DNA of 20,820 bases from NCBI GenBank assembly GCA_964513145.1, contig CAZELK010000012.1, positions 1,580 to 22,399 on the forward strand. The letters run 5' to 3'. The first letter of the stretch is position 1, and every line of letters starts with the position of its first letter. This document shows, in pieces, positions 3,967 through 20,820 of this stretch. A program made the translations under genes and the position numbers. The DNA comes from Candidatus Woesearchaeota archaeon (lineage in GTDB: Archaea > Nanobdellota > Nanobdellia > SCGC-AAA011-G17 > JACPIM01). A model generated the notes under the pieces. That model did not search any database, had not been told where the DNA came from, and worked only from the letters and a program-made list of their open reading frames with translations.

Positions 3967-5193
3967 TTAATCACTTCTGTATATAGTTCCTGATTCAATG
4001 ACACGCGCCTTAATAGTTTTTGGTGAAACCTTTTTCCAAAAATGTTCTTTATTGTTTTTTGGTGAAGATTTTTTCCAAAAATGTTCAGGTCTTACAGTAT
4101 CTCCACAGGCGTTAAGTTCGGCATAGTCCATGCCTACTCTTCGTATATTAATTGAAGCATTTAAATCCCTATGACAAGCAAAACCACATTTGAAACATTG
4201 AAATTGTCTTTCACTAAGAGGCATTTCTTTAATTGCCCCGCAGTTGCTGCATGTCTTGCTTGTGTTTCTTGGATTGACTTTAACAAATTGTCCACCGCTT
4301 CTTACAGCTTTGTAAGACAGCATTCGTATAAAAGAATTCCAGGAAGCATCATTTATGTGTTTTGCTAGTTTATGATTTTTAACCATATTATTTATTCTCA
4401 GGTCTTCAACTACAATAGTGTTATATCCATTTGCCAAATCAGTGCTTGTTTTATGAAGAAAATCTGTTCTTTGATCAGTTATTTTAATGTACTGCCTTGA
4501 CAAACGAAGTTTGGCTTTAAACCTGTTTTTACTTCCTTTCTTTTTTCTGCTTAATTTTTTATGTAATTTTTTTAATTTGTTTTCAGATTTGGCTAAATAT
4601 CTTGGGTTCTTTATTATTTTGCCATCTGACAGAACAGCAAAATTTTCTAATCCAACATCAATGCCAACAGATTCCCTGGAAGAATGAACTATTCTGGGAA
4701 TTTCTACTTCACAGCTGAATATGGCAAACCACTGGTCTGCCTGATTTCTTTTTATTGTCATTGTTTTTATATTTCCTTTTGGGATTCTGTCTAAGACTAT
4801 TTGTATGTTTCCTATTTTAGAAACACATAATCTTTTTTCATTAATGAATTTAAATCCTGATTGTGGGTATGTTATGCTTTTTATAGAAGACTTAAACCTG
4901 GGAAATCCTTTCTTTTTTGAATTGGTTTTTATTCTCATGAAGAAATTATTGAAAGATTTATTTACCCTATCAGATACATTCTGCTTTACCTGAGAGTGTA
5001 GGTTTTGATATTTATTGGTTAAAAATTTATTGAAATCATATTTAAACAATCCTTTTCCAGTTTCCTTGTAATTGTTTATTTATAAATTAAGAAGCTCATT
5101 ATATATTGTTTTGCAGGTCTTGAAACAATCAAGAACTCTTATTTTCTGTTTTCTTGATGGATAGATTCTGTACTTGAACATTCTTAATTCCAT
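3967..5193 (-). pseudogene. tnpB: TnpB RNA-guided endonuclease with an in-frame TAA at codon 38 (5082-5080)
   Basis: Upstream of the listed ORF the frame reads MELRMFKYRIYPSRKQK...NELLNL*INNYKETGKGL, the typical IS605 OrfB N-terminus. RuvC D (GIDVG), E (VVEDL) and D (HRDLNA) and the Zn finger (CSNC..CFKC) are intact. Confidence 0.9.
4017..4086 (-). repeat. Two 31-nt hairpin-forming copies at 39-nt period inside the tnpB 3' end (EHFWKK.SPK x2)
   Basis: 4017-4047 and 4056-4086 are 28/31 identical; each has TTTTGG...CCAAAA inverted arms. Confidence 0.9.
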
Positions 5194-6229: not shown

Positions 6230-6850
6230 ATGGTAGAACTTATTAACAATATCAATTTAGAAATTATTGGTCTTTACAGGACTAGCTATTTCAATCAATT
6301 TCATATAAGAGAAATGGCTAAACTAATTAGAAAAAGCCACGTTGGGCTATTACCAAATCTGAAAAAATTAGAAGATGAGAAAATTCTTTTATCAAAACAA
6401 GTCGGTAAAAGTAAAGTTTTTTCTTTAAATTTAAATAATAATCAAACAAAAGAATTAATATTATTAGCTGAAAAGAAAAAAACATTAGAATTATTGAATA
6501 AGGAATTTTTTATTAAAAAAATTTATGATGAATATATAAAAACTAATCTTAATGGGTGCTTAATCTTATTTGGAAGTTATGCTTCAGGAATAAACACAAA
6601 GAAATCTGATATTGATTTAATATATATTGGAGAAATAAACAATAATGAAGAGAGAAAAATTAAGGATCTGGGAAATATTTACAATAAAGAGATACATTTA
6701 ACAAAAATGAGTTTGAAAGAATTAAAAGAACAATTGCAAAAACAAAACGCTTTAATTAAGGAAGTAATAAAAAATCATATTATTTTATCCAATCACGATT
6801 TTTTAATAAATGAATTATGGAGATATTATAATGAAAAAAGAGAAAAATAA
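6230..6850 (+). CDS. wHTH plus minimal nucleotidyltransferase (MNT) antitoxin
   Basis: N-terminal wHTH (FHIREMAKLI..SHVGLLPNLKKLE); MNT motif LILFGSYASG....SDIDL. Confidence 0.88.
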   Translation: MVELINNINLEIIGLYRTSYFNQFHIREMAKLIRKSHVGLLPNLKKLEDEKILLSKQVGKSKVFSLNLNNNQTKELILLAEKKKTLELLNKEFFIKKIYDEYIKTNLNGCLILFGSYASGINTKKSDIDLIYIGEINNNEERKIKDLGNIYNKEIHLTKMSLKELKEQLQKQNALIKEVIKNHIILSNHDFLINELWRYYNEKREK

Positions 6851-7355
6851 TTTATCATTTTGCTTTAAACAATCAAAGGGATTAAAACTTATTAATCCAA
6901 ATGAAAATCTTGTAGAAGTTTATAAGAAAAAATCAAAATTAGCATTGAATATGCTTAGTTCAGCTATAGAAAAAGAAGAATTTGATTGGATACTTGATAT
7001 TTCTTATTATGCGAAATATTTTATTGTTTACGCTTTATTTATGAAAACAGGAATTAAATCAGAAATTCACGATTGTACAATATCTGCATTGAAGCATTTA
7101 TTTGTTGATGAAAAAATAATTTCTCAAAATATATATAATGAACTTGAAAAATCTAAAGAATTAAGAGTTGGTGCTTTATATTACGATAAAGATTTTGGCA
7201 AAGGAGAAATATTAGAAAGAGCAAATAAATCATCAGAATTTTGTTTGGAAGTTGAGCAATTTTTAGATAAAATTTCAGAAGAGATAATAAATCAAGTAAG
7301 AAATAAATTTAATTTGTTAAAAATGAAGGAGGCAAAAAATGTCAAAAAATATTAA
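6831..7355 (+). CDS. HEPN-domain protein (partner of MNT); likely start ATG 6831
   Basis: Overlaps the MNT stop; helical HEPN-like pattern SYYAKYFIVYALF...HDCTISAL...LRVGALYY. Confidence 0.8.
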   Translation: MKKEKNNLSFCFKQSKGLKLINPNENLVEVYKKKSKLALNMLSSAIEKEEFDWILDISYYAKYFIVYALFMKTGIKSEIHDCTISALKHLFVDEKIISQNIYNELEKSKELRVGALYYDKDFGKGEILERANKSSEFCLEVEQFLDKISEEIINQVRNKFNLLKMKEAKNVKKY

Positions 7356-10716: not shown

Positions 10717-11580
10717 ATGTGGTGCAATAATGTGAAAAAAGAGGAAATTTCTAGATTTGAAGCTTTTCTTAATGGGTTTACTAAGAAAAATGGAAAAAAA
10801 TTAGGGGAAAAAACAATTCACAATATTTTGGTATTATCTAAATTTATAGAATATACTAAAGAAAATGAAACTATTGAAAATTTAATTTCTAAACATAAAA
10901 AATTCTTAGAAAATAGAAATTACCCAATGGGAAAATATAGTCTCTGGCTTTATTTGAAATTTTTGAATTATGATGAAAAAATTATAAAAGAGGTTGCAAG
11001 TTTTAGGAAAAAGAATCTAACTGCTTTAACAGATGAAGAAAAACTTGCGGCTTCTGTGTTATCTAAAAAAGAGCTTACTTTTTTAGTAGATTGTATTTCT
11101 AATTTAAGAGATAAAGTTTTATTAAGAATTCTTTATGATACTGGAGCTAGAATATCTGAAATCCTTAATTTAACATTAAAAGATATAGATTTTGATATAA
11201 AAGAAGTAAGTGTTATGGGCAAGGGCAGAAAACCTAGGACAATTTTCATTCAAAATAGTACAATTGAGCTATTAAAACTTTTAATCAAAAGCAAAAATAT
11301 AGTTTCTCCAAATAATTTGATTTTTCCAATAAAAGCAAACACAGCCTGGTATCATTTAAAGAAATATGGTAGAAAATTCTTAAATAGAGATCTACATCCA
11401 CACATGCTCAGGCATACCCGTTTGCAACATATGGCAGACGAAGGTGTAGATGCTTTTGAAATTAAAGCTTATGCGGGACATTCTTCAGTTTCAATAACAG
11501 AAACTTATGTTAAATCTTCAAAATATCAAAGAAAGTTAGCTTTTGAAAAGGCTGGGGATATATGGAAAAAGGAAAAATGA
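10717..11580 (+). CDS. Tyrosine recombinase/integrase (XerA/XerC-D-like)
   Basis: Catalytic set: R (TGARISE), K (MGKGRK), HxxR (HMLRH), H (AGHSS) and Y (TETYV). Confidence 0.93.
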   Translation: MWCNNVKKEEISRFEAFLNGFTKKNGKKLGEKTIHNILVLSKFIEYTKENETIENLISKHKKFLENRNYPMGKYSLWLYLKFLNYDEKIIKEVASFRKKNLTALTDEEKLAASVLSKKELTFLVDCISNLRDKVLLRILYDTGARISEILNLTLKDIDFDIKEVSVMGKGRKPRTIFIQNSTIELLKLLIKSKNIVSPNNLIFPIKANTAWYHLKKYGRKFLNRDLHPHMLRHTRLQHMADEGVDAFEIKAYAGHSSVSITETYVKSSKYQRKLAFEKAGDIWKKEK

Positions 11581-12271: not shown

Positions 12272-12910
12272 TTATTCTTTATGCTTCTTTATTACTTCCA
12301 AAAGTTTTTTTCGTTTAGTTTTATCGTAATATATTAGCCCTTTTTCAGTTATAGAAATGAAAATTTGACGCCCTTTCCGGGTTTTTTTAATTAACCCATA
12401 TTCGTTCAACAGGTTAATGTAGTCTGAAATCATAGACCTTACATCATTATATTCTTTTTCTGGATATAACTCCTCAGCCAAATGCTTCATAGCTATTCTT
12501 CTTTGAGAAGATTCTATCTGTAACAGACCAAGTCTTAAAAAAATGTTTTGCTGAATATTTGTTAGGTCTTCCCATTTAACTAATAAATTTGGCTTTTTAT
12601 CTGTGTCTTTAGAAAACTCGATGTCATTGTAAGAAGGAGGTTCATTTTTTGGTATTTCCGCGACTATTTTCTCATGATATTTATGATTATTTAATTCACT
12701 TAATCTTGCTTCAAGAAAAAGTATTCTTTCTTTTAAATGTGCCAGGCTATTATCGTGGTGATACAAGAATGTATTTATTTTAGCAATATCTTTTTTAACA
12801 TTAAAAAAAGAATTTTTTAAACTATCTTCTATATTTTTTAATTTTCTATGTAGATGAAAGTCTAAATTAAAAGTATTTCCTCTTTTTTTATTTGAAAATA
12901 ACCACCACAT
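12272..12910 (-). CDS. Coiled-coil plus C-terminal winged-helix protein
   Basis: N-terminal coiled coil; wHTH LTNIQQNIF...MKHLAEELY...VRSMISDYINLLNEYGLIKKTRKGRQIFISIT. Confidence 0.8.
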   Translation of the reverse strand: MWWLFSNKKRGNTFNLDFHLHRKLKNIEDSLKNSFFNVKKDIAKINTFLYHHDNSLAHLKERILFLEARLSELNNHKYHEKIVAEIPKNEPPSYNDIEFSKDTDKKPNLLVKWEDLTNIQQNIFLRLGLLQIESSQRRIAMKHLAEELYPEKEYNDVRSMISDYINLLNEYGLIKKTRKGRQIFISITEKGLIYYDKTKRKKLLEVIKKHKE

Positions 12911-12958
12911 AAACTAATATTTTTAAAACTCCAATTTTTATAAAGGTTTTTATTTTTA

Positions 12959-13018
12959 TGACGCGTCACTGGAACTTCCTGTGACGTCAGTGACGCGTCA
13001 CTGACGTCAGTGACGTCT
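12959..13018. repeat. Array of TGACG(CG)TCA palindromes, including a perfect 28-bp palindrome (12982-13009)
   Basis: TGACGCGTCA at 12959 and 12991; TGACGTCA at 12982 and 13002; TGACGTCT at 13011. This is a GC-rich block in AT-rich DNA, just upstream of the TATA box (12937-12944) of the 212-aa wHTH gene. Confidence 0.95.
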
Positions 13019-13082
13019 TATTTTATTATTAAAGAGTAATTATTTGCTTAAATAAAAGCAGAAATTAACTATTTTAACTGTT

Positions 13083-13748
13083 TTATGAGAGGGTTGTTTG
13101 ATTTGGATCTGTTTTTGATAAAAGTGAGGCTAATCGAGATTTCAAACCCAAAGACCTAAATTCCTTGTCTATTACAAGAAGCGTGAGTTTGTTATTTAAC
13201 CTTATTTTTTGTAATGGAATACCCTTTTTTAACATTTGTGAGACATAAGTTCTTATACACCCTTCAGACAAAGATATGTTTCGTGAGAGTTCAAGATAAG
13301 ATGGACCTCGTTTTATGTCCTCTTCGAGCTGATAAACCACCATGAATGTGAAAAATTCTTGTTTTGTGAGAGTTAAAAATAAAGAATCAATTTGTTTTAT
13401 GTTGGATAAAGTCCAAGAAACTTTATTTTTGGAATTGATTTGTTGATTTTGTTGGTTTGGTGAGAATACTGGGTGAATGTTTGTCTGTTGAATGTCTGTT
13501 GAATGTCTGTTGAATGAATGAATGAATGAATGAATGTCTGCATAGACCCCTTCATTTCCTGTGGAAAATGTTTCCTCTGGAACATTTGGAACTTTAGTAT
13601 CTTCTTTTTGAGAAATTTCAGAAAAATCGTCTTTTTTTGAGATGCCTTCAATAAGGCTTTTAAGCTCATTTATTTGCACTTTTAAGGATTCTATATCTTC
13701 TTTAACTTTAAAAAAAGATTTTTTGAGTTTATCTTCGTCTAACTCCAT
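13083..13748 (-). CDS. Coiled-coil plus repeat linker plus C-terminal wHTH protein
   Basis: N-terminal LKKSFFKVKEDIESLK coil; linker encoded by DNA repeats; wHTH LTKQEF...SYLELSRNISLSEGCIRTYVSQMLKKG. Confidence 0.82.
   Translation of the reverse strand: MELDEDKLKKSFFKVKEDIESLKVQINELKSLIEGISKKDDFSEISQKEDTKVPNVPEETFSTGNEGVYADIHSFIHSFNRHSTDIQQTNIHPVFSPNQQNQQINSKNKVSWTLSNIKQIDSLFLTLTKQEFFTFMVVYQLEEDIKRGPSYLELSRNISLSEGCIRTYVSQMLKKGIPLQKIRLNNKLTLLVIDKEFRSLGLKSRLASLLSKTDPNQTTLS
13482..13540 (+). repeat. Intragenic tandem repeats: 3x TGTCTGTTGAA followed by (TGAA)6
   Basis: 11-mers at 13482, 13493 and 13504; TGAA run at 13511-13534. Confidence 0.95.
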
Positions 13749-13786
13749 TCAAAGAAATCTTATTTTTTTACTTATATGGATTATGA

Positions 13787-13850
13787 TTGTTGAATGAATG
13801 TTTAGATGTGTTTAGGATGTGCACAGGCTTTGTTGAATGAATGTTTAGAT
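13787..13850 (+). repeat. Two perfect 21-bp direct repeats TTGTTGAATGAATGTTTAGAT upstream of the 221-aa wHTH gene
   Basis: 13787-13807 and 13830-13850 (43-bp period); they share the TGTTGAATGAATG core with the intragenic array. Confidence 0.95.
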
Positions 13851-14845: not shown

Positions 14846-16216
14846 TTATTTAAATCTTTTTATTTTGTTTAAAATTTCTTCTTTACCCTTCCAATCTAAA
14901 GCTTCTTCGAGAACTTCTTGAATTGTAGACACGGAAATTATTTTTATTTTATTTTTATTTTCCTGTGATAAAATAATATCCTTCTCATTTGTTTTTGGAA
15001 CTATTACTTTTTTGATACCTGCTTCTATTGCTGCTTCTACTTTGGCTGAAACCCCACCAATTGCCATAACTTCTCCTCTGACTGACAAAGAGCCTGTCAT
15101 TGCAACATCTTGCTTAATGGGGACTTTTTCTAATGCTGAAATAATTGCTGTTGCAACTGCTATTGATGCTGAATCTCCTTCAACACCTTCATATGTTTGA
15201 ATAAATTGGACAAAAATATCATATTTTTCTTTAATATCTTCACCAAAATATTTTAGAATAATTGCTGAAACATTTTGTACTGCTTCTTTAGCTATTTTTC
15301 CTAATTTCCCAGTTGCTATAATTTCGGATTTTTTTCCACCTGGAGTAACTGCTGATTCTATTGGCAAAACTATTCCAGACATTGAAGAGTCTGAACCAAT
15401 AACTGCTAAACCATTTACTTTACCTATTTGAGTACCTGTAATTTTTATAATTTCATATTTTTTCTTGTTTTCAATATATTTGTCAGTAATTTGGTTTTCT
15501 AATGTTTTAGATAATTTCTTTGCTTTAATGATGTGCGACACATTAACTAAGTCTGCTTTTTCCTCTAATGCAACATCACCAGATGCTCTTATTAAACCAC
15601 CCAAGTCTCTTAATCTTAGAGTTAGTTTACCATATCTTCCAGTTCTTCTCCTAGCCTCTTCTATTATTACATCTACTGCTTCTTGATTGAAATGTGGAAT
15701 TTTTCCATCTTTTCTTACTTCCTGCGCAATAAACTGAACTATTTTTTCCCTATTTTCTTTATTATCATCCATTTCATTGTTCATAAAAACTTCATATCCA
15801 TAACCCCTTATTCTTGATCTCAGGGCTGGATGAATATGCTTAATTGTTTCAATATTTCCGGCTGCTACTAAGATAAAGTCACAAGGCACAGGATCACTTT
15901 TTACCATTGCACCACTAGATCGTTCAGACTGACCTGTAATAGAATATTTTTTTTCTTGTATAGCTGTTAATAGTTCTTGTTGTGATTCTGGTTTTAAATT
16001 TGAGATTTCATCTATATACAAAACACCTTTATTAGCTTTATGAATTATTCCTGGAATTAATCTTTCATATGCTGGTGTTCCTAGACCACCTGAGTTTTTT
16101 ACTAGAATTTTATTTGCAAACAAATTACCTGTGGTAGTTGTAAGATTATATAAATAACCACTATAATGTACTTTTTCTATTTTTTTTATTTTTTCAAATT
16201 TTAAACTCATCAACAT
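14846..16216 (-). CDS. lon: Lon protease (LonB) C-terminal half fused to a split-intein IntC (likely start ATG 16210)
   Basis: IntC ...[21 protein letters not shown]|SGGLGTP; Walker B LYIDEI; arginine finger LRSRI; catalytic Ser (GDSAS) and Lys (GVSAKVEA). Confidence 0.93.
16094..16216 (-). other. IntC half of the split intein (39-41 aa; blocks F/G; ends Lys-Asn, Ser+1)
   Basis: Block [18 protein letters not shown]; terminal Asn at 16096-16094 followed by TCA (Ser). Confidence 0.9.
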
Positions 16217-17406: not shown

Positions 17407-20184
17407 TTAATCTAGAGTTATTACTTTGTGCCAAGGTTTTAAATTTTCTGCAGCAATATATTTTATTTTATTAAAAAAATCTTTTACTGCAACTTTATGT
17501 TCTGGAGTTACAATTAATTCTTTTCCAGTTTCTGTTATTAATTTTATTAAGAATTTGTGCTTATTTTTATGTTTATTTACTGATAATACTTCAGCTTGTT
17601 CTATAGAGTTATTTTTTTCTCCAAGTACATTTAATTCCTCTTTCTCTAAATAAGAGGCTAAGTAATTTTCTTGTTTAATTAATTTATTTTTGTGCTTCTT
17701 TAATATGTTATGTACTTGTTCTTCAATTTGCTTCTCTTGTAATTGTAGTAAATTATTATTAGTTTTAGTTGTTGTAATTATTTTTACTACTGAAGAGTGA
17801 CATTGGAGAGGATCGTGCAAACAATCACCGAGTAGTGCTCCTGCGTGCGCTCCAGAAGCATCTAAAAAAGGAGATTTTCGTATTTGTGAATTATCAATTA
17901 ATAATTTTGGAACTCTTGATGTTGATTTTAATTTTCTATTTATATTTAAAAATAAAATGAAGGCTCCTAAAAAGATCATAGAACCTATTAAAGATGCTGC
18001 AGCCATTATATCCCCATATTGTCTTCTTATTAACCACGGGGTTATCATTGAAACTATAACTAAAACAAACAAAAAAGTACTTTGTTTTTTGAAAGATGTC
18101 AGGGCTTGAATTTTTGCTTTTGTTACTATTTCTTTACCTTCTCCTTTTGGTACTGTTTTTATTATTGGTGTGTTCTCGTCTAATGGATTATCAAATGAGA
18201 GAATATCTACTAATTTTTCTGCAGGAAGCAATTCTGCCAGAGCTTGCCCTAATAAGGAATTATGCACTATTAATCCCCCATTAACAACAAAGTTATGATT
18301 TGTTTCGACTTCAAAATCATATACTTCTTCTTTTACATGACTAATTTCTTTTATAGTATCAAAAAATATATCTGAGTTGGCAATTAAATTAAGTTTAGCA
18401 GTGAGATCTTCTAATTTTTGAATATTAAGATTTAATTTATTTCGGGTTTCCTTATATATATTTACTAATTTTTTTGTATTATTTAATAATAAATTTCCAT
18501 TTTCATAGATTGTCAGTGATTTTATTTTTGGAATTAATTCAGAAATTCCAGCAATATTTCGATTTATTTCAATAGATTTATTTGGCATTTCATTTAGAGA
18601 ACAAATTGTATTTAATGATGGCTCAGAAATATTATTTTTATAAAGATAAAACATTTTTTTTGATATAATTTCTTTCTTTTTGTTTATATCTGTATTAAAA
18701 TTATTAATCTTTAATTCTAATAGGTTTATATAATTCAAATGTGAAGTAAATAAATTGCGTTGTAATTTAATAAAATTTAAATCTGATTCTAAATTAGTAA
18801 TAAATCTTTTAATATATTTTCTACTTGGTTTTCTTTCGCCACGAATTATCCTGTTTATAGTCTGATTCCTTGTATTATATTTGTTGTAATTTATTTTAAT
18901 TATATCTTTTATCTCTTTTAAAATTTCTTCAATACCATAAATTAAATCAACATTTGTATGACTTTTTTTTAAAATTAAACTTTCTAGTTTTTGTTTTTTA
19001 TAATCTATTAATAAATTAAGATTTTCATTTAATTTTTTTAAATTTTCATTGCCTGTTATAGTAAGAAAATAATATATTTCTTTTTTCTTTTCTTTTGTAT
19101 TTGAAGCATATTTTAATTTTTTAGTTGTTCTTGATAAAATATTTAATTTTAACAAAATAAGTCTTAAGTTTTCTATTAATTCTTTACTTGCTGAACTTAC
19201 TTCCAACCCCTCTTTATCAAAATGCCCATCACCATCAATATATCCTGTTAAAAAGGACTTTATAATTTCTTCATTAGAATTAATGATTAAAGCAGGTATA
19301 TTTTTGAACCTCGCTTGTTTTGATAAAATCTTCCTTTTTTCGTAGTCCCAAAGTTTCTGGTCAAAATATGACTCCAATATATACACAAGAGACCTGGATT
19401 TCTTAAAAACAACTCCTTCTCTTTCAATTTCTATTAGTTCTTGTGGATAATTTAGATTCTCAATAGCTATCTTCTTTATAGTGCTTTTTATTTTTTCATT
19501 GTAATTAGATATTCGTAAACCCCTACTATAATCTCCTTCAGCTACAAACAAACCTAAAAAATAAGCTATTTCTTTATTTAATTTTTGAGGCATGCTCAAT
19601 TTAATAGAAGATCTGCCGTTTACTCCTTTATAAGAAAAAGAAATTCGCTCATTATCTTGAATATTATTATTGTTTATAAGTAACTTTCTTGTTGAACATA
19701 TAATCATTCCTTCTTTTAATAAAGAAGCATTTTTAAAGAAAAAGGATCCTTTTTCTAAGGATAATGTTGGGTGTTCGCCAGATATGACTAGTTCTGAACC
19801 AGATCTGGATTTAATGTTTAAACAAAGTTTTTGCTTATTTGATTTATATATTCTTTTTATTTTGGATTTAGTAATTTTACCTTCTTTAGTTATAGAAAAT
19901 AATAAAATTTCTTCTTTTGGCTCAATGTAAGTACCATCTTGCCTAATTTGCATTTTTTTAGGGTCTTTTGATAATAGATAATATAGGTCTTTTGCTTTTA
20001 GATTTCCTAATTCTGTTGGGATTAGCGTTTCTTTTCCAACACACTTTCCTGTGCCAGGGTCTCCTATTAAGAGAACATTTCTTCTTTGAGTAGCTGCTTT
20101 TTTTACAATTTCTAAGGCTTTATCCTGACCTATTACTTGTTCATAAGTTTTATTAGAAACTTTAATTTCTTTAGTTGATTTCAT
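17407..20184 (-). CDS. lon: Lon protease (LonB) N-terminal half with a cis intein and a C-terminal split-intein IntN
   Basis: QVIGQD; Walker A GDPGTGK|intein|S; two TM helices; GALLGDCLHDPLQ|CHSS; ends at a TAA after 131 aa of IntN. Exteins of 47+152+415 aa give about 614 aa, a normal LonB size. Confidence 0.93.
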   Translation of the reverse strand: MKSTKEIKVSNKTYEQVIGQDKALEIVKKAATQRRNVLLIGDPGTGKCVGKETLIPTELGNLKAKDLYYLLSKDPKKMQIRQDGTYIEPKEEILLFSITKEGKITKSKIKRIYKSNKQKLCLNIKSRSGSELVISGEHPTLSLEKGSFFFKNASLLKEGMIICSTRKLLINNNNIQDNERISFSYKGVNGRSSIKLSMPQKLNKEIAYFLGLFVAEGDYSRGLRISNYNEKIKSTIKKIAIENLNYPQELIEIEREGVVFKKSRSLVYILESYFDQKLWDYEKRKILSKQARFKNIPALIINSNEEIIKSFLTGYIDGDGHFDKEGLEVSSASKELIENLRLILLKLNILSRTTKKLKYASNTKEKKKEIYYFLTITGNENLKKLNENLNLLIDYKKQKLESLILKKSHTNVDLIYGIEEILKEIKDIIKINYNKYNTRNQTINRIIRGERKPSRKYIKRFITNLESDLNFIKLQRNLFTSHLNYINLLELKINNFNTDINKKKEIISKKMFYLYKNNISEPSLNTICSLNEMPNKSIEINRNIAGISELIPKIKSLTIYENGNLLLNNTKKLVNIYKETRNKLNLNIQKLEDLTAKLNLIANSDIFFDTIKEISHVKEEVYDFEVETNHNFVVNGGLIVHNSLLGQALAELLPAEKLVDILSFDNPLDENTPIIKTVPKGEGKEIVTKAKIQALTSFKKQSTFLFVLVIVSMITPWLIRRQYGDIMAAASLIGSMIFLGAFILFLNINRKLKSTSRVPKLLIDNSQIRKSPFLDASGAHAGALLGDCLHDPLQCHSSVVKIITTTKTNNNLLQLQEKQIEEQVHNILKKHKNKLIKQENYLASYLEKEELNVLGEKNNSIEQAEVLSVNKHKNKHKFLIKLITETGKELIVTPEHKVAVKDFFNKIKYIAAENLKPWHKVITLD
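17410..17802 (-). other. IntN half of the split intein (131 aa)
   Basis: Cys1 after DPLQ; block B ELIVTPEHKV; ends AENLKPWHKVITLD*, at the end of the N-terminal splicing domain. Confidence 0.9.
18259..20043 (-). other. Contiguous 595-aa intein with a LAGLIDADG endonuclease, inserted in the Walker A motif of Lon
   Basis: C1 (CVGKET); block B ISGEHP; LAGLIDADG helices FLGLFVAEGD and FLTGYIDGDG; block F/G VYDFEVETNHNFVVNGGLIVHN|S. Confidence 0.95.
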
Positions 20185-20486: not shown

Positions 20487-20820
20487 TTTAATGTTAGAAA
20501 CTTAAACTTCTATATAAAACTTTCGAGAAAACAAATTTTTAGTAAAAATTAACACCCACCCCATTGTTTCCCATGGAAATTTTAGTATTTTTTAGGTTAT
20601 TTTATTAATTTTTATTGATTATTACTCTTTTTTAGTTATTTCGGCGTGGTTAATTTATATTTTATATTTTATATTTAAATTTTTTGATATCATTATATAA
20701 TAATAAATATTTTTTCGGAAACTTTTCACATTCTATAGGAAATCAAAGGGTCTGGGGTTTGAGAATAGAGCTCTGGTGCATTCCTAATTTTTAAATAGAT
20801 AGAGGCATAGCCTTCTATTG

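What the first reader, a model, noticed from the sequence alone, without database searches (positions are those of the whole stretch)
13083..13850. wHTH gene whose own coding linker and upstream region carry the same iteron-like DNA repeat: candidate replicator-initiator module
Seen in sequence: inside the 221-aa gene are 3x TGTCTGTTGAA plus (TGAA)6. Upstream are two perfect 21-bp repeats that share TGTTGAATGAATG. The 11-nt and 4-nt units translate differently in each copy, so the repeat is maintained at DNA rather than protein level, yet the frame stays open. Established: lambdoid phage O-type initiators carry their iterons inside the gene, and plasmid Rep proteins autoregulate through iteron-like operators. 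Inference: the coiled-coil/wHTH protein binds this motif, acting either as a non-Orc1/Cdc6 initiator with an intragenic origin or as an autoregulated factor whose linker is a variable contingency locus.
Basis: partly seen in the sequence, partly recalled or inferred. Interest (0 to 1): 0.7.

Follow-up and report, generated by a model that had tools for sequence, protein, structure and literature searches.

The report
Replication-initiator box written inside a gene
The floppy middle of this small archaeal DNA-binding protein is encoded by DNA that doubles as a textbook binding box for the replication initiator Orc1/Cdc6 plus a fast-evolving repeat array mirrored at the gene's own promoter, which ties the gene to control of chromosome replication; the true origin lies 7 kb away.

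Summary
Their 13-nt shared core occurs three times in the 0.98-Mb genome, all at this locus.

The gene (13083-13748, minus strand) encodes a coiled coil, a disordered linker and a winged-helix domain. It is a near-universal, mostly single-copy gene of this DPANN order.

Two results stand out.
- In 42 related genomes the linker array is lineage-specific, with at least nine motif classes. The same motif recurs beside the gene's own promoter.
- Just 5' of the array lies a nucleotide-frozen block, GTTCCAnnGGAAATnAnGGGGT. It has one codon per residue in 35-37 of 37 genes and is kept in two reading frames. It matches the published archaeal origin recognition box (ORB).

The gene lies 1.5-15 kb from orc1/cdc6 in 15 of 15 genomes. 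The canonical origin (inverted ORBs around an AT-rich stretch) is at window 20558-20752, not here.

Best reading: an origin-proximal autoregulated wHTH gene whose linker carries an Orc1 box plus its own operator array. It is neither a non-Orc1 origin nor a phase-variable locus.

I reached the ORB reading before consulting earlier notes. This scan has already reported the ORB-in-gene on other DNA (e1-4670067, e1-938129). The co-varying arrays are, as far as I saw, new. I found no paper on this.

The parts
13083..13748 (-). Gene X, 221 aa: N-terminal coiled coil, disordered linker, C-terminal winged helix
   Evidence: ORF and translation. AF2 model: helix 5-45, pLDDT below 50 for residues 44-107, wHTH 114-212 with pLDDT above 90. 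The family has 824 clusters at 50% identity with E<=1e-3. It was found in nearly all sampled genomes of the order, one copy in most.
13614..13736 (-). Coding region of the N-terminal helix (aa 5-45) with the conserved SFxKVKEDIxxLK motif
   Evidence: The same motif is shared with neighbour P0002.
13570..13583 (-). Mini-ORB GTTCCAGAGGAAAC (dyad only, no G-string), read as V-P-E-E
   Evidence: A second tandem copy of this kind is also present in L001-L003 and L020.
13545..13568 (-). Full ORB TTTTCCACAGGAAATGAAGGGGTC (dyad plus G-string), read as (F)STGNEGV
   Evidence: It matches published ORBs in PMC4153887 Table 2. Its codons are frozen in relatives. The block is kept in another reading frame in L006, L009 and L013, and the matching alternative-frame peptide appears in nine family proteins.
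13482..13544 (-). Lineage-specific iteron array directly 3' of the G-string: TATGCAGACA, then (TTCA)6, then (TTCAACAGACA)3
   Evidence: The array class differs between lineages and matches each genome's own upstream array.
13113..13409 (-). Coding region of the winged-helix domain (aa 114-212)
   Evidence: The best structural neighbours are Orc/Cdc6 winged-helix domains at Z 9.3-10.7, then MarR/ArsR at Z 8-9. Foldseek gives MarR/SlyA at E about 3e-3.
13771..13778 (-). TATA-like element (ATATAAGT on the gene strand), about 25-30 nt before the ATG
   Evidence: Read from the sequence. An equivalent TATA-like element lies at -28 to -58 in 19 of 30 relatives. Promoter function is inferred.
13787..13850 (-). 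Upstream array: two perfect 21-bp copies ATCTAAACATTCATTCAACAA flanking the widely conserved block CTGTGCACATCCTAAACACAT (13806-13826)
   Evidence: The block recurs upstream of homologues that carry other array types.
20558..20752 (.). Canonical oriC. It is not part of the finding but decides its reading. ORB(-) at 20558-20579 and ORB(+) at 20730-20752 flank an AT-rich stretch.
   Evidence: The AT-rich stretch is 82-90% AT. The contig ends at 20820, and orc1/cdc6 sits at the start of contig C3. The same layout lies next to orc1 in relatives.

Best explanation
Gene X is an origin-proximal coiled-coil/winged-helix DNA-binding protein. The DNA that encodes its disordered linker is a composite cis element.

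(1) One or two canonical origin recognition boxes (dyad TTCCAnnGGAA plus G-string GGGGT) are the sites that Orc1/Cdc6 recognises at archaeal origins.

(2) Directly 3' of the G-string lies a lineage-specific array of short direct repeats of the (NNCA)n or 11-nt type. This array is duplicated just upstream of the gene's own TATA box, about 335 bp away.

Proposed mechanism:
- X binds both arrays through its winged helix.
- X bridges them through its coiled coil, enclosing its promoter and the ORB. This is autoregulation of the lac O1/O2 or gal OE/OI type.
- Orc1/Cdc6 occupies the intragenic ORB beside the X-bound array, so expression of X, or Orc1 availability, is coupled to replication initiation at the real origin 7 kb away.

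Shown: the ORB identity by sequence, nucleotide-level selection on it, the concerted change of the two arrays, origin proximity, and the wHTH fold.

Inferred: who binds what, the looping, and the direction of regulation.
For: - ORB identity. The consensus over 41 distinct loci is aGTTCCAnnGGAAATnAaGGGGTc. L008/L033 carry GTTCCAGTGGAAATGAAGGGGT, identical 22/22 to 'Ca. M. intestinalis' ORB3. It is close to the archaeal consensus CTTCCAGTGGAAACGAAAGGGGT in PMC4153887 Table 2. The invariant TTCC/GAA core and the G-string are described in PMC1904270, PMC1868953 and PMC3936714.
- Nucleotide-level selection. Columns S62, G64, N65 and G67 use one codon each (TCC 37/37, GGA 37/37, AAT 35/35, GGG 37/37). 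All 21 other amino-acid columns that are at least 90% conserved use 2-6 codons.
- Two reading frames. The same DNA is read as VPQExKGS or a close variant in L006, L009 and L013 and, judged from their peptides, in nine further family proteins of different array classes.
- Rarity. The strict ORB pattern occurs once per genome in 4 of 5 near-closed relatives. In 3 of those it lies inside X.
- Array match. A genome's own upstream region shares a mean of 6.0 8-mers with its intragenic array. Control windows of the same locus share 0.37 and the reverse complement 0.43. In 24 of 42 loci the value exceeds every one of 38-98 control windows. In 11 loci the own upstream is the best of all 42 upstreams.
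- At least nine motif classes are matched at both positions.
- The motif is unique to this locus in the genome and absent from oriC.
- Geometry is conserved. The ORB starts 141-276 nt into the gene. The array-to-array distance has a median of 335 bp. The upstream array mostly ends 13-65 nt before the TATA-like element.
- Origin proximity. X lies 1.5-15 kb from the main orc1/cdc6 in 15 of 15 genomes and is always transcribed away from oriC.
- wHTH fold.
Against: - There are no binding data for X or Orc1.
- The raw association between array class and the recognition-helix residue (R-T-Y with TTCA in 56/59; R-G-Y with the AACA, ATCA and AGCA classes in 11/17) cannot be separated from shared ancestry. 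Only one independent pair lies on supported branches.
- Upstream arrays are weak or absent in some lineages: L004, L052 and the other-order genomes L069-L073, where X follows a small gene closely.
- Direct repeats with a 4-nt period are not the usual palindromic operators of dimeric wHTH proteins.
- The neighbouring small wHTH or the P0002-like protein could be the array binder instead.
- A single off-origin ORB has little titration capacity compared with the 11-ORB oriC2D of Haloarcula hispanica.
Confidence: 0.55

Rival explanations
1. The X locus is itself a replication origin, either second or auxiliary. The ORB plus X-specific iterons would form a replicator, with X as initiator or co-initiator. 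This is a replicator-initiator pair of the lambda O/ori or WhiP/oriC3 kind and is the first reader's option (a) with Orc1 added.
For: - An ORB lies directly beside an iteron array inside the putative initiator's own gene.
- Cis pairing of origin and initiator gene is the archaeal rule, and WhiP shows that non-Orc wH initiators exist (PMC4010727).
- G183 has two inverted ORBs about 80 bp apart inside X.
- In G203 and G111 the N-terminal coding stretch next to the ORB is at least 84% AT.
- The top fold neighbours are Orc/Cdc6 winged-helix domains.
Against: - Every genome checked has a canonical ORB/DUE/ORB origin directly upstream of orc1, including this window at 20558-20752.
- The X locus in the window is 64-76% AT, against a window mean of 72.5%, so it has no unwinding element.
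- Most genomes have a single ORB in X, or two in direct orientation, not an inverted pair.
- The distance to oriC varies from 1.4 to 15 kb.
Confidence: 0.1
2. X's Orc-like winged helix binds the ORB dyad itself, acting as a WH-only competitor or partner of Orc1. The lineage-specific arrays are then bound by another factor, for example the neighbouring small wHTH or the P0002-like protein.
For: - The six best structural neighbours of the C-terminal domain are Orc/Cdc6/ORC2 winged-helix domains at Z 9.3-10.7.
- The ORB is the one invariant DNA feature of the gene across the family.
- The cluster holds other wHTH genes with their own lineage-specific arrays.
Against: - Profile-profile comparison of X with the genomes' own Orc1 finds no homology (hhalign probability 0.1).
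- The Z advantage over generic MarR/ArsR domains is about 1-2 units, so the rows are close to tied.
- X's recognition helix varies between lineages while the ORB does not.
Confidence: 0.15
3. The arrays are not binding sites. They are slippage-prone simple repeats in a tolerant linker, and their likeness to the upstream copy comes from gene conversion or unequal exchange between nearby direct repeats.
For: - The copies in the window are perfect, which implies recent expansion.
- Arrays turn over even within a genus.
- The linker is disordered and tolerates any reading frame of a 4-nt repeat.
Against: - The array always starts within a few nucleotides of the G-string, and the upstream copy keeps a fixed place beside the TATA-like element in most loci where one was found.
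- At least nine motif classes are matched at both positions.
- Exchange between direct repeats 335 bp apart would delete the promoter and the N-terminus, yet the genes are intact.
Confidence: 0.12
4. Contingency locus: gain or loss of one 4-nt or 11-nt unit shifts the frame and switches X off and on (the first reader's option (b)).
For: - The unit lengths are not multiples of three.
- Tetranucleotide coding repeats are the classic phase-variation device (general knowledge; PMC2791445 was listed but not read in depth).
- Logan contigs of four groundwater runs show 11-nt insertions or gaps at the repeat.
Against: - The frame is open in nearly all strong matches among 401 genomes. Only two listed matches carry stops.
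- Tracts are short, at most about 8 units.
- The 11-nt differences lie where contigs break inside a repeat longer than the assembler's word, and the tool flags them as mostly false.
Confidence: 0.05

Closest known systems
ORB / mini-ORB cluster inside the dp1 (PolD small subunit) coding region next to oriC in Thermococcales (Matsunaga et al. 2007, PMC1904270)
   Same: Orc1/Cdc6 boxes are written into a protein-coding sequence a few kb from the canonical origin. They are conserved across an order and, in Pyrococcus, bound by Cdc6 in vivo and in vitro.
   Different: The host gene there is a polymerase subunit, not a DNA-binding protein. No second, lineage-specific array adjoins the ORB and none is mirrored at the promoter. 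Conservation in two reading frames was not reported in the passages I read.
oriC2D, the ORB-rich region downstream of cdc6E in Haloarcula hispanica (Wu et al. 2014, PMC3936714); E. coli datA by analogy
   Same: Off-origin initiator boxes near the origin have no origin activity and negatively control initiation, probably by titrating the initiator.
   Different: oriC2D has 11 ORBs in a 722-bp intergenic region. Here there are one or two ORBs inside a gene, so titration capacity would be small.
Phage lambda O protein and ori-lambda; plasmid Rep/iteron autoregulation
   Same: Repeated binding sites lie inside the coding region for a flexible linker of a DNA-binding protein. Iteron-like copies also lie at the promoter.
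   Different: X shows no homology to O or Rep families. The locus has no unwinding element. A cellular Orc1 box is part of the cassette, and the real origin is elsewhere.
Auxiliary intragenic operators: lac O2 in lacZ, gal OI in galE (general knowledge)
   Same: One operator lies upstream and one inside the coding region, a few hundred bp apart, and the two are bridged by an oligomeric repressor.
   Different: Those operators are palindromes bound by LacI/GalR-family proteins. Here the arrays are direct repeats whose sequence changes between lineages.
WhiP and oriC3 of Sulfolobus (PMC4010727)
   Same: A winged-helix protein encoded next to its own origin-associated repeats.
   Different: oriC3 lacks ORB and mini-ORB elements according to the review. 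I did not compare X with WhiP or Cdt1 directly.

Membership tests
Archaeal origin recognition box (ORB, Orc1/Cdc6 site) | Dyad mini-ORB core with invariant TTCC ... GAA | tested here: met
   TTCCACAGGAA at 13556-13566 on the minus strand. The core is present in 41 of 44 distinct loci. The definition comes from PMC1904270.
Archaeal origin recognition box (ORB, Orc1/Cdc6 site) | G-string a few nt 3' of the dyad | tested here: met
   GGGGT lies 5 nt after GGAAA in the window and in the consensus. The G-string is described in PMC1868953 and PMC3936714.
Archaeal origin recognition box (ORB, Orc1/Cdc6 site) | Match to published ORB sequences | tested here: met
   L008/L033 match 'Ca. M. intestinalis' ORB3 at 22/22. 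By my count against the sequence printed, the window copy matches at 19/22, with two of the three differences in the dyad spacer.
Archaeal origin recognition box (ORB, Orc1/Cdc6 site) | Bound by Orc1/Cdc6 | not testable with these tools
   Needs EMSA, footprinting or ChIP.
Canonical archaeal oriC | Inverted ORBs flanking an AT-rich unwinding element, next to orc1/cdc6 | tested here: not met
   At X the ORBs are single or in direct orientation and AT content is 64-76%. The feature is met at window 20558-20752 and beside orc1 in relatives.
Iteron-type replicon (lambda O, plasmid Rep) | Initiator belongs to a known Rep/O family | tested here: not met
   No Pfam or NCBIfam family reaches its cut-off. 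The best hits are DnaD_N at E 0.07 and similar noise.
Iteron-type replicon (lambda O, plasmid Rep) | Repeated sites inside the gene and at its promoter | tested here: met
Simple-sequence contingency locus | Coding repeat whose unit is not a multiple of 3 | tested here: met
   4-nt and 11-nt units.
Simple-sequence contingency locus | Out-of-frame alleles among relatives or within populations | tested here: inconclusive
   Frames are intact in almost all relatives. Only assembled contigs were available, and they break inside the repeat.
Winged-helix (MarR-like) autoregulator | wHTH fold | tested here: met
   AF2 pLDDT is above 90 for residues 114-212. MarR/SlyA/ArsR matches appear.
Winged-helix (MarR-like) autoregulator | Palindromic operator at its own promoter | tested here: not met
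   The upstream sites are direct repeats, not palindromes.
Orc1/Cdc6 winged-helix domain | Fold and sequence kinship to the Orc/Cdc6 C-terminal WHD | tested here: inconclusive
   On fold, the top six VIA rows are Orc/Cdc6/ORC2 WHDs at Z 9.3-10.7, against 8-9 for MarR/ArsR. On sequence, hhalign against the genomes' own Orc1 gives probability 0.1.
WhiP / Cdt1 | Homology to WhiP | not tested

The most novel reading that the evidence does not exclude
The ORB-plus-iteron cassette is a dedicated control point of replication initiation. Orc1/Cdc6 bound inside the gene and X bound on the adjoining lineage-specific array would touch each other. X would then act as a fast-evolving, species-specific regulator or co-factor of the initiator, for example restraining or licensing re-initiation. 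In the extreme form, the locus would fire as an X-dependent second origin. Passage of the fork from the origin 1.5-15 kb upstream would reset the complex once per cycle.
Probability: 0.2. Interest if true: 0.85.

Novelty: new variant of a known kind. Interest (0 to 1): 0.72.

Why it matters
**Annotation.** An apparent conserved protein motif (SSTGNEGV) is really a translated DNA signal. This is a clean case of a cis element overriding codon choice in two reading frames, and a warning for motif-based annotation.

**Replication control.** Almost nothing is known about replication control in DPANN archaea, which cannot yet be grown alone. This locus gives a concrete, testable link between the universal initiator Orc1/Cdc6 and a lineage-specific DNA-binding protein. 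It also marks the chromosome origin in hundreds of draft genomes.

**Co-evolution.** The matched promoter and intragenic arrays that change together between lineages offer a natural series for studying how a DNA-binding protein and its sites co-evolve.

Tried and rejected
Homologue DNA therefore came from the search for related loci, the genome search and the fetch from genomes.
- Pfam and NCBIfam gave no family above its cut-off for X, P0002, P0003 or the 150-aa neighbour. The ESM Atlas returned only unnamed Nanobdellota clusters.
- A profile search of the PDB by sequence found nothing useful.
- Complex prediction with Orc1 and X gave no verdict, score 0.00. This is no evidence either way.
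- Sequencing runs: no RNA holder was listed. Only Logan contigs from four groundwater runs of one study hold the locus.
- The laid contigs show 11-nt insertions or gaps at the repeat. They end inside the repeat and the tool flags such rows as mostly false, so repeat-length variation is undecided.
- Co-variation of array class with the recognition-helix residue was tested with phylogenetic control. Only one independent pair lies on supported branches, so the test has no power.
- The array motif as a genome-wide regulon or dispersed repeat is rejected, because it is unique to the locus.
- The array motif at oriC itself is rejected, because no copy lies near orc1 in five genomes.
- No tRNA was found in the window, and no composition step at the locus that would mark an integrated element.
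- The PWM scores printed for the published ORB consensus sequences were computed one position out of register. I did not use them.
- The search of earlier findings by sequence failed.
- Literature searches for DPANN or Woesearchaeota origins or ORBs found nothing relevant.

Full report
**Observation**

The gene is on the minus strand at 13083-13748 and encodes 221 aa. Tandem Repeats Finder reports (TGTCTGTTGAA)x3.2 at 13482-13516 and (TGAA)x6.5 at 13511-13536, both perfect. The perfect 21-bp pair lies at 13787-13807 and 13830-13850, upstream of the gene. On the gene strand the block encodes ADIHSFIHSFNRHSTDIQQT, with the three 11-nt units read in three frames. The shared 13-mer CATTCATTCAACA occurs three times in the 977,603-bp genome, only here. 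My arithmetic from base composition expects about 0.08 copies.

**The protein**

- AlphaFold2, run with a 26-sequence alignment, gives a long N-terminal helix (residues 5-45).
- Residues 44-107 are a low-confidence linker that holds the repeats.
- Residues 114-212 form a confident winged helix.
- Foldseek finds MarR/SlyA-type domains weakly.
- The full-library structural aligner ranks the winged-helix domains of Cdc6/Orc proteins first at Z 9.3-10.7, with MarR/ArsR at Z 8-9.
- A profile-profile comparison with the genomes' own Orc1 is negative, so I treat the Orc likeness as a lead only.
- No curated family matches.
- The family is large: 824 clusters at 50% identity.
- In a sample of 401 genomes of the phylum it is found in nearly all genomes of the window's order, as a single copy in most.
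- That tally includes six unpublished genomes: G243, G359, G332, G395, G242 and G321. No sequence-level claim here rests on them.

**Arrays co-vary**

I collected homologous loci from species-representative genomes and kept 44 distinct ones. In nearly every one the linker carries a short tandem DNA repeat whose sequence differs by lineage:
- (TTCA)n or TTCAACAGACA, as here
- (AAGC)n with GTTAAGCA
- GTTGAACCAAC x4
- (AACA)n
- (ATCA)n
- (CTCA)n
- (CGCA)n
- TGTGCACAT units
- GGTTATTCAC units

Tetranucleotide repeats read in three frames explain the odd periodic peptides seen across 170 of 200 family members, such as IHSF, NKQT, NQSI, KQAS and DRQT.

The same lineage-specific motif recurs in the roughly 200 nt upstream of the gene. 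Over 42 loci:
- The genome's own upstream region shares a mean of 6.0 8-mers with the intragenic array. Control windows of the same locus share 0.37 and the reverse complement 0.43.
- In 24 loci the value exceeds every control window.
- In 11 loci the own upstream is the best of all 42 upstreams.

The geometry is conserved:
- The array-to-array distance has a median of 335 bp.
- The upstream array usually ends 13-65 nt before a TATA-like element.

Some lineages lack a detectable upstream copy (L004, L052 and the other-order loci L069-L073).

The raw association between array class and the residue after the invariant Arg of the recognition helix is suggestive. It has no power once relatedness is controlled.

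**The frozen block is an ORB**

Directly 5' of every array lies aGTTCCAnnGGAAATnAaGGGGTc, present in 41 of 44 distinct loci. Three results show selection on the nucleotides rather than on the peptide.
- Among amino-acid columns that are at least 90% conserved, the four in this block use a single codon each: TCC 37/37, GGA 37/37, AAT 35/35 and GGG 37/37. TCC and GGG are G+C-rich codons in a genome of about 29% G+C. All 21 other such columns use 2-6 codons.
- In L006, L009 and L013 the same DNA sits in another reading frame and reads VPQExKGS or a close variant instead of SSTGNxGV.
- Nine further family proteins of different array classes show that alternative-frame peptide.

The sequence matches the published archaeal origin recognition box. 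PMC4153887 Table 2 lists the archaeal consensus CTTCCAGTGGAAACGAAAGGGGT and 'Ca. M. intestinalis' ORB3, GTTCCAGTGGAAATGA-AGGGGT. The latter is identical to the block in L008/L033. The invariant TTCC/GAA core and the G-string contacted by the AAA+ domain are described in PMC1904270, PMC1868953 and PMC3936714.

The window carries a full ORB at 13545-13568 and a dyad-only copy at 13570-13583. The strict pattern is very rare. It occurs once per genome in four of five near-closed relatives, and in three of those it lies inside X.

**Where the origin is**

The genome has a canonical orc1/cdc6 (419 bits) at the start of contig C3 and a weaker paralogue on C5. At the end of the window, which is also the end of contig C12, two ORBs in inverted orientation (20558-20579 minus, 20730-20752 plus) flank a stretch of 82-90% AT. 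That is the textbook origin.

In relatives where orc1 and X share a contig, the same layout lies directly upstream of orc1, and X lies on the far side of the origin. It holds for G142, G203, G031, G248 and G084, and in part for G060, G113, G183, G338 and G111.
- X is 1.5-15 kb from orc1 in 15 of 15 genomes.
- X is always transcribed away from the origin.
- In the seven genomes compared, its ORB has the same polarity as the nearest origin ORB.

The X locus itself is not AT-rich, and the array motif is absent from the origin region. The locus is still tied to replication through Orc1.

**Mechanism**

I propose that X binds the two arrays and bridges them through its coiled coil, autoregulating its promoter. 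I also propose that Orc1/Cdc6 occupies the intragenic ORB next to the X-bound array. Two precedents support off-origin ORBs near an origin:
- The ORB cluster inside dp1 of Thermococcales is bound by Cdc6 in vivo (PMC1904270).
- The ORB-rich oriC2D of Haloarcula hispanica restrains its origin, probably by titrating Cdc6 (PMC3936714).

Which protein binds the arrays, whether a loop forms, and whether Orc1 regulates X or X regulates Orc1 are all inferences.

**Rivals**
- A second origin at X. The main arguments against it are the missing unwinding element and the canonical origin nearby.
- X binding the ORB itself through an Orc-like winged helix.
- Neutral slippage plus gene conversion. The fixed positions of the arrays and the intact genes argue against this.
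- A contingency locus. Frames are intact in almost all relatives, and the read data are uninformative.

**Range and context**

The ORB-plus-array linker also occurs in other orders of the class (L069-L073). More distant homologues of about 175-190 aa have no linker and no ORB.

The gene sits in a conserved origin-side cluster: ArgRS or LonB, a protein of about 145 aa, often a small wHTH, then X, then a P0002-like coiled-coil/wHTH gene. The P0002-like gene has its own lineage-specific CG-palindrome arrays upstream.

**Novelty**

I found no paper on origins or ORBs in these archaea. I reached the ORB reading, before consulting earlier notes. This scan had already reported the ORB frozen inside this gene family on other genomes (e1-4670067, e1-938129). 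What I add:
- the concerted change of the intragenic and promoter arrays
- the codon-level and two-frame proof on this set of loci
- the origin map for this window

Noticed in passing
window 20558-20752: This looks like the canonical chromosomal origin. ORB(-) TTTCCATGGGAAACAATGGGGT and ORB(+) ATTCTATAGGAAATCAAAGGGTC flank about 150 bp of 82-90% AT with 7-20-nt tandem repeats. The contig ends at 20820, and orc1/cdc6 is at the start of contig C3, so the assembly probably breaks at or just beyond the origin.
   Followed up: partly
window 12272-13082; also the X-to-neighbour spacers of L001, L004, L006, L010, L013, L015, L018, L019, L021 and L022: The downstream neighbour P0002 (212 aa) has an N-terminal MWWLF motif, a coiled coil with the same SFxNIKKDI motif as X, and a wHTH. 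It has its own lineage-specific array of CG-containing palindromes upstream: TGACGTCA/GACGCGTC here, and GAACGTTC, TAACGTTA, TTACGTAA and GTCAAC...GTTGAC elsewhere. This looks like a second co-evolving protein/site pair in the same cluster.
   Followed up: partly
window 12966-12988: Inside the P0002 upstream array the sequence CACTGGAACTTCCTGTG carries two half mini-ORB-like TTCC(A/T)GTG arms in everted orientation. It is conserved in L001 and L004. Its meaning is unknown.
   Followed up: no
window 13806-13826 and the upstream regions of many loci (L004, L013, L015-L017, L038, L044): The block TGTGCACATCCTAAACACAT and 11-nt units of the form yTnnnCACATC recur upstream of X in lineages with different array types. 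L021 has six tandem CTCTGGACACA units. This may be a second conserved site near the promoter.
   Followed up: no
L015, L018, L019, L021, L022 just after the stop codon of X; upstream of X in L004 and L021; also window 13360-13372: The motif AACTCTCAC(T)TT recurs in spacers after stop codons. The same letters encode the conserved LTLTKQEF start of the wHTH domain. It is unexplained.
   Followed up: no
window 14846-16216 and 17407-20184: LonB protease is encoded in two pieces, with intein and LAGLIDADG domains in the upstream piece.
   Followed up: no
window 3967-5049, 6230-7355, 10717-11580: A TnpB/Cas12f-like gene, a nucleotidyltransferase/HEPN pair, and a tyrosine recombinase of 287 aa.
   Followed up: no
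L059 (G183:C1:240241-240332): In this relative, X carries two ORBs in inverted orientation about 80 bp apart that bracket the array. This is the most origin-like version of the cassette seen.
   Followed up: partly
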